From contig JAGHHZ010000024.1 in assembly GCA_017887425.1 (NCBI GenBank), positions 49,534 to 113,533 on the forward strand: a stretch of 64,000 nucleotides of DNA, written 5' to 3'. The stretch comes from Bacilli bacterium (GTDB lineage: Bacteria > Bacillota_I > Bacilli_A > RF39 > UBA660). Made by a program: the position numbers and the translations under genes. Each line of letters opens with the position of its first letter. Within the stretch, counting starts at the first letter, position 1. Shown here one piece after another: positions 2,597 to 58,047 of the stretch. The notes under the pieces are model-generated. The model was not told the origin of the DNA, made no database searches, and saw only the letters and a program-made list of their open reading frames with translations.

Positions 2597-3336
2597 TGGA
2601 ATATGCATATTTAACAGATCCAGGAAAAGTAAGAGATCACAATGAAGATAGTGTTATTATTGTTAAAAATGAAATGGGTGAAATCTTATTAGCTGTTGCT
2701 GATGGTATGGGAGGACATTGTGGTGGCGAAATTGCCTCTAGTATTGCTATTTCTCATATTGGAGACAGATTTAGAAAAACTAGTTCTGTTGGAACTAAAG
2801 AAGATGCCATTAGTTTTATTAAAGAAATAGTTAGTGAAGCTAATGTTTTGTTATATAAATATACCAGTGAACATAAAGAAAGTTCAGGCATGGGAACAAC
2901 GATAGTATTAGCTTTAGTAACAAAGGAATTTTTGTTATTTGGTAATATTGGTGATTCTTCAGGTTATGTGTTAAGGAAAAATAAACTTCACAAAATAACA
3001 ACCGATCATACTTTGGTAAGTTTACTAGTTAAATCTGGTGAATTGACCGAAGAAGAAGCTAAAGATCATCCAAGAAAAAATGTCTTAATGCGAGCTTTAG
3101 GAGCTACTAATACGGTTGAGATGGATATATTTGATGTCGAAAGAGATGTCGATGGTATTCTATTATGTAGCGATGGTCTTACTAACATGTTAGATGATGA
3201 ACAAATCGCTAAAGTACTAGTTGACGAAGATATTAATATTGAAGATAGATTAAAAAAATTAATCGTTAAATGTAATAATCGTGGGGGAACTGATAATATT
3301 TCTATTGCATATTTAAAGGATGGTGTAAAAAAATGA
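2596..3336 (+). CDS. stp: PP2C-family Ser/Thr protein phosphatase (Stp/PrpC)
   Basis: PP2C motifs DGMGGH, GDSSGY, LLCSDGLTN. Overlapping start/stop coupling with the flanking genes. Confidence 0.9.
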   Translation: MEYAYLTDPGKVRDHNEDSVIIVKNEMGEILLAVADGMGGHCGGEIASSIAISHIGDRFRKTSSVGTKEDAISFIKEIVSEANVLLYKYTSEHKESSGMGTTIVLALVTKEFLLFGNIGDSSGYVLRKNKLHKITTDHTLVSLLVKSGELTEEEAKDHPRKNVLMRALGATNTVEMDIFDVERDVDGILLCSDGLTNMLDDEQIAKVLVDEDINIEDRLKKLIVKCNNRGGTDNISIAYLKDGVKK

Positions 3337-55598: not shown

Positions 55599-55624
55599 AA
55601 ATATGGATTGCTCCATATTTTTTT
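55599..55624. terminator. Bidirectional terminator between gmk (+) and the collagen-like gene (-)
   Basis: AAATATGGA-ttgc-TCCATATTT hairpin with an A-run upstream and a T-run downstream. Confidence 0.6.
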
Positions 55625-56411
55625 AGTTAATTCTTGTTATAGAAACGCTGGCAGAGTATAGATTATTTGGTACTAATTCGAAATCATTATATGAGGTGTT
55701 AATGAATCTATAGCTTGCTCCAGGAAGTGCTTCAAATATAGCATTACCATTAATTGTACCAGTTTCACAACATGAAAGTTTATTGTGGGTTGAAGAGTGT
55801 GCGATTAAAATGTCTTCTGGCCAGAATTGGTGAAATTCTATTCCTAGCGGTTTTTCTTCGCAATTGAAGTTATCATTTTTATGACTTCTAACATTTACCC
55901 ACCAATGGACGATATAGATTCCAGCTTCTGGAATAGAAAAGTCTCCAGTTGCAGGATTATATGTGATTTTGTTGGAAATGTTAGTATTTTGGAATAAAAT
56001 AGGGTTTTGTGATTGAACTGTAGAATTAGATCTATCGTGAACCATTGCATAACTATCTAAATTAATTCCAGGTCCAGCAGGTCCAGTAGGTCCAGTTGCA
56101 CCAGTCGCACCACTAGGTCCAGTAGGTCCAGTAGCACCAGTCGCACCACTAGGTCCAGTAGGTCCAGTGGCACCAGTCGCACCGCTAGGTCCAGTAGGTC
56201 CAGTAGATCCAGTAGCACCAGTAGCACCGCTAGGTCCGGTAGGTCCAGTTGCGCCGGTAGCTCCTCTAGGCCCAGTAGGTCCAGTACATCCACATGGTCC
56301 GGTAGGTCCTTGTTTTTGACGGTCAACTAAACACTTTATAACTTCGCATAAAGGGTTATTTCTACATTCGTCTTTTCTTAAGAATTCTTCAATTTTGTCA
56401 TTCTCGTTCAT
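55623..56411 (-). CDS. BclA-like collagen-repeat protein: short N-terminal domain, about 28 G-X-Y triplets, and a C1q/TNF-like C-terminal domain
   Basis: [33 protein letters not shown]... G-X-Y repeats built from a [12 protein letters not shown] 12-aa unit. The roughly 140-aa C-terminal domain has the beta-rich character of the BclA globular domain. Strong RBS AAAGGAGG. The gene is convergent with gmk. Confidence 0.75.
56068..56310. repeat. GC-rich tandem 9-bp (GGTCCAGTA-type) and 36-bp repeats encoding the collagen G-X-T triplets
   Basis: A ggtccagtaggtccagtggcaccagtcgcaccgcta unit repeats more than 4 times with single-base variants. Local GC is far above the window average. Confidence 0.85.
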
Positions 56412-56596: not shown

Positions 56597-56624
56597 TTGA
56601 CAAACATATAATAAATGGTATAAT
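56597..56624 (+). promoter_or_regulatory. Sigma-A-type promoter of the infC-rpmI-rplT operon
   Basis: TTGACA, 16-nt spacer, TATAAT (near consensus). Confidence 0.6.
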
Positions 56625-56639
56625 TATAGAGAAATGAAG

Positions 56640-56750
56640 AAGGAAAGCGAGTATCCACACTCCACCTGATAGCTATAAGGCTATGGGTTAGTAAGCCGAT
56701 TTAATTGTGTTTATGGTAGGTGGATACTGTTCGTATCTACTTTTTTATTG
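56640..56750 (+). promoter_or_regulatory. infC-rpmI-rplT operon leader (L20-responsive attenuator-type leader) with a terminator-like hairpin
   Basis: Structured leader between the promoter and infC. It ends in a GGATAC-tgttc-GTATC hairpin followed by a T-run (CTACTTTTTTATT). Firmicutes L20 leaders occupy this exact position. Confidence 0.5.
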
Positions 56751-56762
56751 TTGGAGGTGTCA

Positions 56763-57296
56763 ATTATCGCAAATAAATCTAAAGATTCATTAATTAATGA
56801 ACAAATTAAAGCCAAAGAGGTTATGGTTATCGGACCAAATGGTGAACAATTAGGAACTAAAGGAATCAAAGATGCACTAACTTTAGCAAATTATGCTGGA
56901 TTCGATTTAGTTTTAATTAATCCAAATGGTAATCCACCAGTTTGTAAAATCATGGATTACAACAAATTTAAATATGAAAATAAAAAAAGAACTAAAGAGA
57001 ATTTAAAAAAACAAAGAGAAGCTAATTTGGAAATGAAAGAATATCGCTTGTCTGTTACTATCGATGTTCACGATTTTAATACGCGTGTAAAAAACAGTGC
57101 TAAATATTTGGAAAAAGGACATAAAGTAAAAGCTACTATTCGTTTTAAAGGTAGAGAAATGGCTCACCCAGAATTAGGACGTGAAGTTTTAATGCGTTTT
57201 GCTAGTGCCCAAGAAAGTGTAGCGATTATTGAACAACAACCTAAACTAGAAGGACGTATAATGTCGATGATTTTAGGTCCAAAAAAGGAAAAATAG
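56763..57296 (+). CDS. infC: Translation initiation factor IF-3 with a non-canonical AUU (ATT) start codon
   Basis: GGAGGTG RBS followed 5 nt later by ATT ATC GCA AAT AAA. The IF-3 sequence (VMVIGPNGEQLG, C-domain) matches. AUU initiation of infC is a conserved autoregulatory feature. Confidence 0.88.
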   Translation: MIANKSKDSLINEQIKAKEVMVIGPNGEQLGTKGIKDALTLANYAGFDLVLINPNGNPPVCKIMDYNKFKYENKKRTKENLKKQREANLEMKEYRLSVTIDVHDFNTRVKNSAKYLEKGHKVKATIRFKGREMAHPELGREVLMRFASAQESVAIIEQQPKLEGRIMSMILGPKKEK

Positions 57297-57309: not shown

Positions 57310-57498
57310 ATGCCAAAAATGAAAACTCATAAAGGAACAAGTAAAGTTTGTAAAGTAAGACCAGGTGGAACAATTAAAATTGGTCATCCTGGAACAAGAC
57401 ATAATACAGGAAAGAAAAATGCTGCTAGTAACCGTGCTGGTAGAACAGCATCAACTTTAAGTAATAGCGATTACAAAAGAATTAAGGATTTAATATAA
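57310..57498 (+). CDS. rpmI: 50S ribosomal protein L35
   Basis: MPKMKTHKGTSKVCKVRPGG N-terminus. 62 aa. Confidence 0.92.
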   Translation: MPKMKTHKGTSKVCKVRPGGTIKIGHPGTRHNTGKKNAASNRAGRTASTLSNSDYKRIKDLI

Positions 57499-57510: not shown

Positions 57511-58032
57511 ATGGCAAGAGTTAAAGGTGGAACAATCAGTCGTGCAAGACATAAAAAAGTTTTAGATCAAGCCAAAGGATATTTTGGTAGTAAACATAGA
57601 CTTTACCGTACTGCAAATGAACAAGTAATGCATTCTGGTAAATATGCATTCCGTGATAGAAAACAAAAGAAAAGAGATTTCCGTAAATTATGGATTACAA
57701 GAATTAATGCAGCTTGTCGTCAAAATGATATTAGTTATTCAAAATTTATCAATGGTTTAAATAAAGCTGAAATTGATATCAACCGTAAAATGTTAAGCGA
57801 GATTGCTATTGATAATCCAAAAGCATTTACTGAATTAGTTAGTGTTGCTAAAGATGCTTTAGAAGGAAAAGTAACTAAAGCTGTTAAAGAAACTAAAACA
57901 GCTAAAACTGAAAAAACAAGTTCAGATTTAAGCAGTAAAACAGTTGCTGAATTAAAGGAAATAGCTAAAGAAAAGAATATCGAAGGATATTCAACAATGA
58001 AAAAAGCAGAATTATTAGAAGCTTTAAAATAA
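57511..58032 (+). CDS. rplT: 50S ribosomal protein L20 with a roughly 55-aa C-terminal extension carrying a Rho_N-like motif
   Basis: Residues 1 to about 118 are canonical L20 (MARVKGG...[11 protein letters not shown]). The extension is [53 protein letters not shown]. Confidence 0.85.
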
Positions 58033-58047
58033 GCTTCTTTTTTTTAC
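58018..58047 (+). terminator. Rho-independent terminator of the infC-rpmI-rplT operon
   Basis: GAAGCTT-taaaat-AAGCTTC hairpin followed by T10. It overlaps the rplT stop. Confidence 0.65.

What the first reader, a model, noticed from the sequence alone, without database searches (positions are those of the whole stretch)
57511..58032. Ribosomal protein L20 with a C-terminal Rho_N-like extension
L20 is normally about 118 aa. Here it is 173 aa. A Lys/Thr-rich linker is followed by [28 protein letters not shown]. This closely matches the Rho termination factor N-terminal helix-hairpin motif, which is also found in some ribosome-associated proteins. L20 is the autoregulator of the infC-rpmI-rplT operon via its leader, so an added nucleic-acid-binding module is noteworthy.
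Basis: seen in the sequence. Interest (0 to 1): 0.55.

Follow-up and report, generated by a model that had tools for sequence, protein, structure and literature searches.

The report
L20 with tethered SAP/Rho_N-like tail
This gut bacterium's ribosomal protein L20 really does carry a small, conserved two-helix module of the SAP/Rho-N nucleic-acid-binding type on a flexible lysine-rich tether; the same add-on is found on L20 of many related bacteria including phytoplasmas and on ribosomal protein S2 of relatives, so it is a catalogued but functionally unstudied lineage feature, not an error or a one-off.

Summary
ORF 57511..58032 (+) encodes a 173-aa L20: a canonical core (Pfam Ribosomal_L20, 163 bits), a 21-aa Lys/Thr/Glu linker, and a 35-aa terminal module that passes Pfam Rho_N (42 bits; cut-off 24.9).

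It is not an artefact. The identical protein is encoded on at least 56 contigs. 73 of 80 related species-level genomes have the same layout. The module is under purifying selection.

AlphaFold predicts a disordered linker followed by helix-loop-helix. The module covers only the two-helix core and is as close to the Ku70 SAP domain as to Rho.

The architecture is already catalogued. NCBIfam NF011109, "L20/unknown domain fusion protein", is the phytoplasma version; the window protein scores just below its cut-off.

New context: in 38 relatives both L20 and the adjacent ribosomal protein S2 carry the module (40 S2 genes in all), apparently with occasional swapping between them, and a Flavobacteriaceae L21 carries it too. 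The module is therefore a generic ribosome-surface appendage, not an L20-specific autoregulation device.

The most likely function is low-specificity RNA or DNA binding from the solvent face. This is inferred from the RNA-binding Rho-N motif of RHON1 and from SAP domains, and is untested. I found no paper on it. Interest is moderate.

The parts
56597..56624 (+). sigma-70-type promoter-like site (TTGACA, 16 nt, TG-TATAAT; 12 of 12 matches) upstream of the operon leader
   Evidence: a consensus match only
56639..56754 (+). L20 leader-like 5' UTR (RF00558) ending in a terminator/attenuator hairpin at 56718-56742 plus a U-run
   Evidence: 34.9 bits, E 4e-4, below the gathering score of 58.7; terminator-like site
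56757..57296 (+). infC (IF3). The start is uncertain: gene callers use GTG 56757, but ATT 56763 is better spaced from the GGAGG at 56753-56757
   Evidence: IF3_N + IF3_C
57310..57498 (+). rpmI (L35), 62 aa
   Evidence: Ribosomal_L35p
57511..58032 (+). rplT, the complete 173-aa extended bL20 including its stop codon
57517..57837 (+). canonical L20 domain (residues 3-109)
   Evidence: PF00453, 163 bits; TIGR01032, 169 bits; pLDDT above 90
57862..57924 (+). linker, residues 118-138 ([21 protein letters not shown]), net charge +3, predicted disordered; 17-64 aa long and variable in sequence in relatives
   Evidence: (pLDDT below 50 for residues 124-137)
57925..58029 (+). terminal helix-extension-helix module, residues 139-173 ([35 protein letters not shown]); predicted helices at 145-154 and 165-172; hydrophobic core and MKK motif invariant
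58017..58046 (+). intrinsic terminator of the operon (an 8-bp stem overlapping the last codons and the stop, then T8)

Best explanation
The gene encodes a genuine, selected domain fusion with three parts: a normal bL20 core, a flexible Lys/Glu/Thr-rich tether, and a 35-residue helix-extension-helix module of the SAP/HeH/Rho_N class at the very C-terminus.

Shown here: the fusion is real, it is conserved across a broad Mollicutes-related clade of Bacilli (gut MAGs, Izemoplasmatales, a Breznakia MAG, phytoplasmas), it is under purifying selection, and it is predicted to fold as two helices after a disordered linker. The same module also sits on the C-terminus of uS2 in relatives and of bL21 in a Flavobacteriaceae genome.

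Inferred: the C-terminal domain of bL20 lies on the solvent face of the 50S subunit next to bL21 (established ribosome structure, recalled from my own knowledge). The module would therefore be displayed on a leash of tens of angstroms from the ribosome surface. There it would act as a low-specificity nucleic-acid-binding tether, for surface rRNA, mRNA or nascent RNA, or chromosomal DNA. It would be a generic ribosome-surface appendage shared by both subunits, and not a device specific to L20's autoregulation of infC-rpmI-rplT.
For: Real and selected.

Fold: AlphaFold gives a disordered linker plus two helices. The best structural superpositions are the Rho N-terminal domain (1.4-1.5 A over 35 residues) and the Tho1 and FAN1 SAP domains. 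Sequence and profile matches are to the Ku70 SAP domain (E 3.6e-8) and to Rho N-termini of three species.

Generic role: 40 S2 proteins in related loci carry the same linker plus module. In 11 of the 38 genomes where both proteins carry it, L20 and S2 share the short-loop subtype, which never occurs on S2 alone (Fisher p 0.006). L21 carries the module in a Flavobacteriaceae genome.

Nucleic-acid binding by analogy: the C-terminal 40-aa Rho-N motif of Arabidopsis RHON1 alone binds RNA, including 23S rRNA fragments, in gel shifts (PMC3458557). Relatives whose L20 lacks the module instead have longer and much more basic K/T-rich tails, with net charge +8 to +14. The tether is net positive (mean +3.1), and the module's MKK motif is invariant.
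Against: No binding or structural experiment exists for any of these ribosomal fusions. The window's module has net charge 0, so it is not obviously a polyanion binder on its own. HeH-class domains can also bind proteins; LEM-BAF is an example, recalled from my own knowledge. Foldseek E-values are not significant for so short a motif. No ribosomal protein chain in the PDB contains the module, so its position on a ribosome has never been seen. It is not known whether this organism's own S2 carries the module, because the window has no rpsB.
Confidence: 0.55

Rival explanations
1. The module is a protein-docking device. The HeH modules on bL20 and uS2 would recruit a common protein factor, or pair with each other, to organise ribosomes (dimers, polysome packing, or attachment to RNA polymerase or the membrane), and would not bind nucleic acid.
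For: The same module appears on proteins of both subunits and seems to be exchanged between them, which is what a shared partner would demand. The window module has net charge 0. Some HeH-class domains are protein binders (own knowledge).
Against: The closest characterised relatives bind nucleic acid: the RHON1 Rho-N motif and the Ku70, Tho1 and FAN1 SAP domains. In some relatives the module is replaced by plain polybasic tails, which fits electrostatic nucleic-acid binding better than a specific protein contact. No candidate partner gene is conserved next to the locus.
Confidence: 0.2
2. The module is an L20-specific regulatory add-on: an extra RNA-binding surface that strengthens or alters L20's binding to the infC-rpmI-rplT leader (transcription attenuation, as in Bacillus subtilis) or to its 23S rRNA site during early 50S assembly.
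For: An L20-leader-like element with an attenuator hairpin precedes infC. bL20 is the known autorepressor and an early assembly protein (review PMC10931766). The RHON1 Rho-N motif binds 23S rRNA fragments.
Against: The same module occurs on S2 and L21, which do not regulate this operon. Close relatives keep the operon while having lost the module from L20 (L040, L065, L070-72, L074, L076). The long, variable linker does not suggest a fixed bipartite RNA site.
Confidence: 0.1
3. The extension is a functionally neutral passenger: a low-complexity extension with a hitch-hiking mini-domain that is tolerated because the L20 C-terminus is solvent exposed.
For: Linker length and sequence drift freely (17-64 aa). 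The module has been lost from L20 several times. Many L20 clusters elsewhere carry assorted Lys/Ala/Pro-rich tails.
Against: The module is under purifying selection comparable with the L20 core. Its core positions are 90-100% conserved over genomes whose L20 cores are only 55-85% identical. It is retained from phytoplasmas to gut lineages, in small, reduced genomes.
Confidence: 0.1
4. The extension is an artefact: a sequencing or assembly frameshift, or read-through of the true stop near residue 118.
For: None was found. Frameshift-split tails do occur for S2 in some assemblies, which shows that A-rich linkers are error-prone.
Against: The identical 173-aa protein is found on 56 contigs from independent samples and assemblers. 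The same architecture is present in 73 of 80 related species. There is a synonymous excess in the tail. A terminator lies directly after the stop.
Confidence: 0.01

Closest known systems
NCBIfam NF011109 (PRK14537) '50S ribosomal protein L20/unknown domain fusion protein', the phytoplasma L20
   Same: The architecture is identical: L20 core, a low-complexity linker, and a C-terminal module that aligns with the window's tail (model positions 170-224, E 6.5e-6). True members are encoded in 'Ca. Phytoplasma mali' AT and 'Ca. P. asteris' De Villa, in the same infC-rpmI-rplT context.
   Different: The window protein scores 172.5 bits, below the 187-bit cut-off. Its linker is shorter and Lys/Thr/Glu-rich where the phytoplasma linkers are Asn/Lys-rich. 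The module is only about 35-45% identical to the phytoplasma ones. NCBI leaves the domain 'unknown'; here it is assigned to the SAP/HeH/Rho_N class.
N-terminal helix bundle of transcription terminator Rho (Pfam Rho_N, PF07498)
   Same: Passes the Pfam gathering threshold. It aligns with residues about 10-50 of Thermus, Thermotoga and Mycobacterium Rho and superposes on E. coli Rho at 1.4-1.5 A over 35 residues.
   Different: Only helices 1-2 are present (model positions 1-34 of 43). There is no OB-fold RNA-binding domain and no ATPase. The module sits at a C-terminus, not an N-terminus. The protein is not a Rho paralogue.
Arabidopsis RHON1 C-terminal Rho-N motif
   Same: A roughly 40-aa helix-extended-helix Rho-N motif placed at the C-terminus of an unrelated protein. 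The isolated motif binds RNA, including 23S rRNA fragments (PMC3458557).
   Different: RHON1 is a plant chloroplast RNase E partner, not a ribosomal protein. No direct sequence comparison with RHON1 was made here.
Eukaryotic SAP domains (Ku70, Tho1, FAN1; Pfam SAP PF02037 and HeH PF12949)
   Same: The best PDB profile hit is the Ku70 SAP domain (E 3.6e-8). Structural matches include Tho1 and FAN1 SAP domains at 0.8-2.1 A. The S2-borne copy in L054 passes the SAP threshold (33.8 bits).
   Different: The window copy is below the SAP and HeH thresholds (15.9 and 23.0 bits). It is bacterial and borne on a ribosomal protein.
NCBIfam 'sunset domain' variants of L20 (NF051450) and S2 (NF051451)
   Same: Curated cases in which the same two ribosomal proteins, L20 and S2, carry a C-terminal add-on.
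   Different: The window L20 (143 bits against 375) and the S2 fusions (284-294 bits against 710) are far below the cut-offs. None of the module-bearing tails aligns to the last ~45 positions of the L20 sunset model, so this is a different appended domain. I could not characterise it.

Membership tests
Bacterial ribosomal protein bL20 (PF00453 / TIGR01032) | Full-length match above the curated cut-offs | tested here: met
   PF00453 163.2 bits (cut-off 30.8), model 1-107/107; TIGR01032 169.1 bits (cut-off 65.65), 1-114/114
Bacterial ribosomal protein bL20 (PF00453 / TIGR01032) | infC-rpmI-rplT operon context with an L20 leader | tested here: met
   The gene order IF3-L35-L20 is met. The L20_leader match is only 34.9 bits, below the gathering score of 58.7 (E 4e-4), so the leader itself is suggestive only.
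Pfam Rho_N (PF07498) | Score above the gathering threshold | tested here: met
   42.0 bits in the full protein and 44.6 bits for the tail alone, against 24.9
Pfam Rho_N (PF07498) | Complete three-helix bundle (model positions 1-43) | tested here: not met
   Only model positions 1-34 are covered and the protein ends there. AlphaFold shows two helices.
Transcription termination factor Rho | OB-fold RNA-binding domain and RecA-type ATPase following the N-terminal bundle | tested here: not met
   NF006886 and TIGR00767 match only model positions 3-38 (17-20 bits against cut-offs of 315 and 509). Nothing follows the module.
SAP (PF02037) / HeH (PF12949) motifs | Score above the gathering thresholds | tested here: not met
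   SAP 15.9 bits (tail alone 19.6) against 23.9; HeH 23.0 bits (tail alone 25.6) against 28.9. The module profile nevertheless hits the Ku70 SAP domain at E 3.6e-8, and the S2 copy in L054 passes SAP (33.8 bits).
SAP/HeH/Rho_N structural class (helix-extension-helix) | Two helices joined by an extended loop that superpose on known members | tested here: inconclusive
   The predicted helices 145-154 and 165-172 (pLDDT about 78 in the full protein, 92-94 in the tail-only model) superpose on the Rho NTD, Tho1 SAP and FAN1 SAP at 0.8-2.1 A. All Foldseek E-values exceed 1, because the motif is so short.
SAP/HeH/Rho_N structural class (helix-extension-helix) | Binds nucleic acid | not testable with these tools
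   Rests only on analogy with RHON1 and SAP domains
NCBIfam NF011109 L20/unknown domain fusion protein | Whole-protein score of at least 187 bits | tested here: not met
   172.5 bits. The architecture is the same, and phytoplasma members score 242-381 bits.
NCBIfam NF051450 L20, sunset domain variant | Whole-protein score of at least 375 bits, including the C-terminal sunset domain | tested here: not met
   143.2 bits, with only model positions 1-153 of 219 aligned

The most novel reading that the evidence does not exclude
The helix-extension-helix modules tethered to bL20 on the 50S subunit and to uS2 on the 30S subunit (and to bL21 in Flavobacteriaceae) would form a previously unrecognised ribosome-surface anchoring system. 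It would physically tie ribosomes to the chromosome or to nascent transcripts, or link ribosomes to each other, in small-genome Mollicutes-related bacteria. The modules would be kept interchangeable by recombination between the adjacent rplT and rpsB genes. This could be a lineage-specific route to transcription-translation coupling or ribosome organisation.
Probability: 0.15. Interest if true: 0.75.

Novelty: new member of a known kind. Interest (0 to 1): 0.42.

Why it matters
Appended folded domains on bacterial ribosomal proteins are rare compared with simple tails. This one is carried by abundant human and animal gut bacteria and by phytoplasmas, which are plant pathogens. Public databases record the architecture, but NCBI's curated phytoplasma model still calls the domain "unknown", and I found no paper on it. 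Assigning it to the SAP/HeH/Rho_N class, and showing that it also sits on uS2 and bL21, turns an annotation oddity into a testable idea: some bacteria decorate both ribosomal subunits with a tethered nucleic-acid-binding module. In practical terms, the result also explains 31-67-aa ORFs annotated 'Rho termination factor N-terminal domain-containing protein'. The three examined here are broken-off S2 tails, and genuine extended L20 and S2 genes should not be 'corrected'.

Tried and rejected
1. Frameshift or artefact: rejected on cross-assembly identity and conservation.

2. A tail-only search of the 5.8-billion-protein database (one search failed because the query was under 40 aa; one search ran). 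It returned only fragments of 70 aa or less and did not even recover the parent L20, so it gave no census of host proteins. The fragments I followed up were S2 tails split by frameshifts and one L21 tail.

3. 'Sunset domain' as another name for this module: rejected. No module-bearing protein approaches the cut-off or aligns to the C-terminal part of the model. The apparent high scorers include duplicated-L20 gene calls such as P0124.

4. Foldseek on the tail model: the right families come top, but no E-value is below 1.

5. A codon-level test for recent gene conversion between the L20 and S2 modules: inconclusive. Strong codon bias gives a background identical-codon fraction of about 0.70. 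Within-genome values are 0.57-0.93, and only a few exceed the background by more than 2 SD.

6. A second copy of the module elsewhere in the window: none found. The window has no rpsB, so I could not determine whether this organism's S2 also carries the module.

7. Literature searches ('Rho_N' + L20, 'sunset domain', bL20 + 'C-terminal extension', 'helix-extension-helix' + Rho + SAP, 'Rho_N' + ribosomal): nothing on these fusions. The Flavobacterium johnsoniae ribosome paper does not mention an L21 or L20 extension.

Full report
**Observation**

The window contains a compact infC-rpmI-rplT operon. It starts with a perfect sigma-70-like promoter (56597-56624). A leader with a weak match to Rfam L20_leader follows (56639-56754; 34.9 bits, E 4e-4, below the gathering score) and ends in an attenuator-like hairpin at 56718-56742. 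Then come infC (to 57296), rpmI (57310-57498) and the ORF in question, 57511-58032 (+). A terminator hairpin at 58017-58038, followed by T8, overlaps the last codons, so the 173-aa reading frame ends at a bona fide operon end.

Pfam finds Ribosomal_L20 on residues 3-109 (163 bits). It finds Rho_N (PF07498) on residues 139-172 at 42 bits, against a cut-off of 24.9. HeH and SAP appear just below their thresholds.

**Not an artefact, and under selection**

- The identical protein (P0002) is recorded on 56 contigs and in 97 index blocks. The four places inspected come from different samples and have the same gene neighbourhood.
- A scan of one genome per species returned 80 related loci. These are gut MAGs labelled uncultured Bacilli, Tenericutes, Erysipelotrichaceae or Mycoplasma, plus Ca. 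Onthousia, a Breznakia MAG and an Izemoplasmatales MAG.
- In 73 of the 80, L20 ends with the same module after a linker. The linker varies freely in length (17-64 aa) and sequence, and its composition is 28% Lys, 19% Glu and 14% Thr.
- Against the seven closest relatives, the module has pN 0.035-0.071 and pS 0.30-0.51, similar to the L20 core. Over 977 unsaturated pairs, dN/dS is about 0.34 for the module and 0.19 for the core.
- The hydrophobic positions and the MKK motif are 96-100% conserved.

**What the module is**

AlphaFold, run with a 45-sequence alignment, gives a confident L20 core. The linker is disordered (residues 124-137, pLDDT below 50). Two helices follow, at 145-154 and 165-172. 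The tail alone folds the same way, with pLDDT 92-94.

Foldseek against the PDB gives no significant E-value for so short a motif. It nevertheless ranks the Rho RNA-binding domain first (1a8v; 1.5 A over 35 residues), followed by the SAP domains of Tho1 and FAN1.

By sequence, the tail matches residues about 10-50 of Thermus and Thermotoga Rho, and the Ku70 SAP domain. A 27-sequence profile of the module hits the Ku70 SAP domain at E 3.6e-8 and M. tuberculosis Rho at E 1e-6.

Only positions 1-34 of the 43-position Rho_N model are covered, and the protein stops there. There is no OB fold and no ATPase. The module is therefore best described as the two-helix helix-extension-helix core common to SAP, HeH and Rho_N. 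It is not a piece of a Rho paralogue.

**Already catalogued**

NCBIfam holds NF011109 (PRK14537), '50S ribosomal protein L20/unknown domain fusion protein'. The window protein scores 172.5 bits against a cut-off of 187, and its tail aligns to the model's C-terminal part.

True members include P0205 and P0221. They are encoded in CU469464 ('Ca. Phytoplasma mali' AT) and CP035949 ('Ca. P. asteris' De Villa), again downstream of infC-rpmI.

Among the 150 nearest 50%-identity L20 clusters in a 1.84-billion-protein library, 20 carry the module. Many others carry plain Lys/Ala/Pro-rich tails. Some 'long L20s' there look like gene-calling artefacts: duplicated L20 (P0124) and chimeras with unrelated enzyme domains.

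Precomputed Pfam annotations already show PF07498 + PF00453 for the window's protein cluster. The architecture is therefore known to databases. I found no paper that discusses it.

**The most informative new result: the module is not specific to L20**

I searched all fetched loci with an HMM of the module. It found 77 L20 genes and 40 further ORFs of 305-389 aa lying immediately downstream of rplT. Pfam identifies those ORFs as Ribosomal_S2 followed by Rho_N (27-39 bits). In one case SAP also passes its threshold, at 33.8 bits. They have the same kind of Lys/Glu-rich linker. Two genomes whose L20 has lost the module (L065, L074) keep it on S2.

Two loop-length subtypes of the module exist. The short-loop subtype occurs on S2 only in genomes whose L20 also has it (counts 11, 14, 0 and 13; Fisher p 0.006). 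It appears at two or three places on an L20-core tree. In a few genomes, L20 carries an S2-type sequence (L034, L038).

This pattern suggests occasional exchange between the adjacent genes. A codon-identity test could not confirm recent conversion, because the codon-bias background is high.

Three ORFs of 31-55 aa, one of them named 'Rho termination factor N-terminal domain-containing protein' by NCBI, lie between rpsB and tsf. They are evidently S2 tails split off by frameshifts in the A-rich linker.

A Flavobacteriaceae genome has L21, then an Ala/Lys/Pro linker, an assembly gap, the module, and then rpmA.

No ribosomal protein chain in the PDB contains the module, so it has never been seen on a ribosome.

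**Mechanism**

Shown: a conserved, selected, folded mini-domain sits on a flexible and mostly basic tether at the C-terminus of bL20. In relatives, interchangeable copies sit on uS2.

From established ribosome structure (my own knowledge, not computed here): the C-terminal domain of bL20 lies on the solvent side of the 50S subunit next to bL21, and uS2 lies on the solvent side of the 30S subunit. The modules would therefore be displayed outward from both subunits.

By analogy: the isolated 40-aa Rho-N motif of RHON1 binds RNA, including 23S rRNA fragments (PMC3458557). The SAP domains of Ku70, Tho1 and FAN1 bind nucleic acid (own knowledge; FAN1-DNA complexes appear among the matches). Relatives that lost the module from L20 carry longer tails that are far more basic, with net charge +8 to +14.

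I therefore favour a low-specificity RNA- or DNA-binding tether (confidence about 0.55). The rivals are:

- A protein-docking or ribosome-organising role (0.2).
- An L20-specific boost to leader or rRNA binding (0.1). This is disfavoured because S2 and L21 carry the same module, and because the operon persists where the module was lost from L20.
- A neutral passenger (0.1). This is disfavoured by the purifying selection.
- An artefact (0.01).

**Comparison and novelty**

The protein is a bL20; all tested criteria are met. Its tail passes the Pfam Rho_N threshold, but the protein is not a Rho and lacks the third helix. It falls short of the curated cut-offs for SAP and HeH, for the phytoplasma L20-fusion equivalog, and for the 'sunset domain' L20 variant.

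NCBI also has a 'sunset' variant model for S2. That is a curious parallel involving the same two proteins, but it concerns a different appended domain that I could not characterise.

I rate the finding a new member of a known, catalogued kind with unknown function. Interest is moderate. It rises if the modules prove to anchor ribosomes to DNA, to RNA or to each other.

Noticed in passing
L054:1828-2787, L050:3640-4596, L047:3659-4651, L065:4458-5456, L074:4749-5822 and 35 further loci: Ribosomal protein S2, encoded directly downstream of rplT in these relatives, carries the same Lys/Glu-rich linker and terminal SAP/Rho_N-type module as L20. Two of these genomes (L065, L074) have lost the module from L20 but keep it on S2.
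   Followed up: yes
L032, L036, L043, L048, L050, L053-L056, L066, L067 (both short-loop); L034, L038 (L20 with an S2-type module): Within some genomes the L20 and S2 modules are 83-94% identical and share a loop-length subtype that S2 never has on its own (Fisher p 0.006). This suggests exchange between the adjacent genes. The codon-level test for recent conversion was inconclusive.
   Followed up: partly
L092:1861-2671 (Flavobacteriaceae MAG DPBM01000096.1): L21 runs into an AKKAAPKAAAK linker and then an assembly gap of Ns. A 56-aa fragment follows, ending in a near-identical module just before rpmA (L27). This looks like a third ribosomal protein, in another phylum, with the same appendage.
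   Followed up: partly
L088:1029-1181, L089:3001-3168, L090:3001-3096: ORFs of 31-55 aa, one of them annotated by NCBI as 'Rho termination factor N-terminal domain-containing protein', lie between rpsB and tsf. In L089 the ORF overlaps the end of the S2 gene in another frame. They appear to be S2 tails split off by frameshifts in the A-rich linker, not standalone genes.
   Followed up: partly
L040, L065, L070, L071, L072, L074, L076 (rplT at 3001 onward): These relatives have L20 tails of 34-88 aa with no terminal module. The tails are strongly basic Lys/Thr/Ala-rich low-complexity sequence (net +8 to +14), as if a polybasic tail substitutes for the module.
   Followed up: partly
e.g. L061:3001-3606, L042:3001-3615 (L20 residues ~118-140): The longer L20 variants share an additional conserved segment, 'DGKAGKITKxxEVxGxEVTI', between the L20 core and the linker. 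It is absent from the window protein and I did not identify it.
   Followed up: no
window 56597-56754: A perfect sigma-70-type promoter (TTGACA, 16 nt, TG-TATAAT) is followed by a weak L20_leader match (34.9 bits, below the gathering score) with an attenuator-like hairpin plus U-run at 56718-56742. This is consistent with Bacillus-type L20 autoregulation by transcription attenuation.
   Followed up: partly
window 56748-56768: The infC start is ambiguous. The mechanical ORF starts at TTG 56748 and gene callers use GTG 56757, which overlaps the GGAGG at 56753-56757. ATT 56763 or ATC 56766 is better spaced, which would fit the unusual AUU-type start codon classically used by infC.
   Followed up: no
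window 55623-56411 (- strand): A collagen-like protein with G-X-T triplet repeats ([12 protein letters not shown]...) and a non-repeat C-terminal domain. Its length differs among otherwise syntenic strains (247, 268 and 274 aa in other assemblies; 262 aa here), so the repeat number varies between strains.
   Followed up: no
NCBIfam models NF051450 and NF051451 (seen): NCBI curates 'sunset domain' variants of both L20 and S2, the same two ribosomal proteins that carry the module here. None of the proteins examined is a member, and the sunset domain does not align with this module. What it is, and in which lineage, remains unknown to me.
   Followed up: partly
P0124, P0135, P0141 and others among the 150 representative L20 clusters; P0001 (293 aa): Several 'long L20' clusters in the metagenome protein libraries look like artefacts: tandem or duplicated L20 sequences, and chimeras with unrelated enzymes. 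P0001 is an L20 + Rho_N protein with a roughly 93-column N-terminal extension annotated PF12452, which I did not examine.
   Followed up: no
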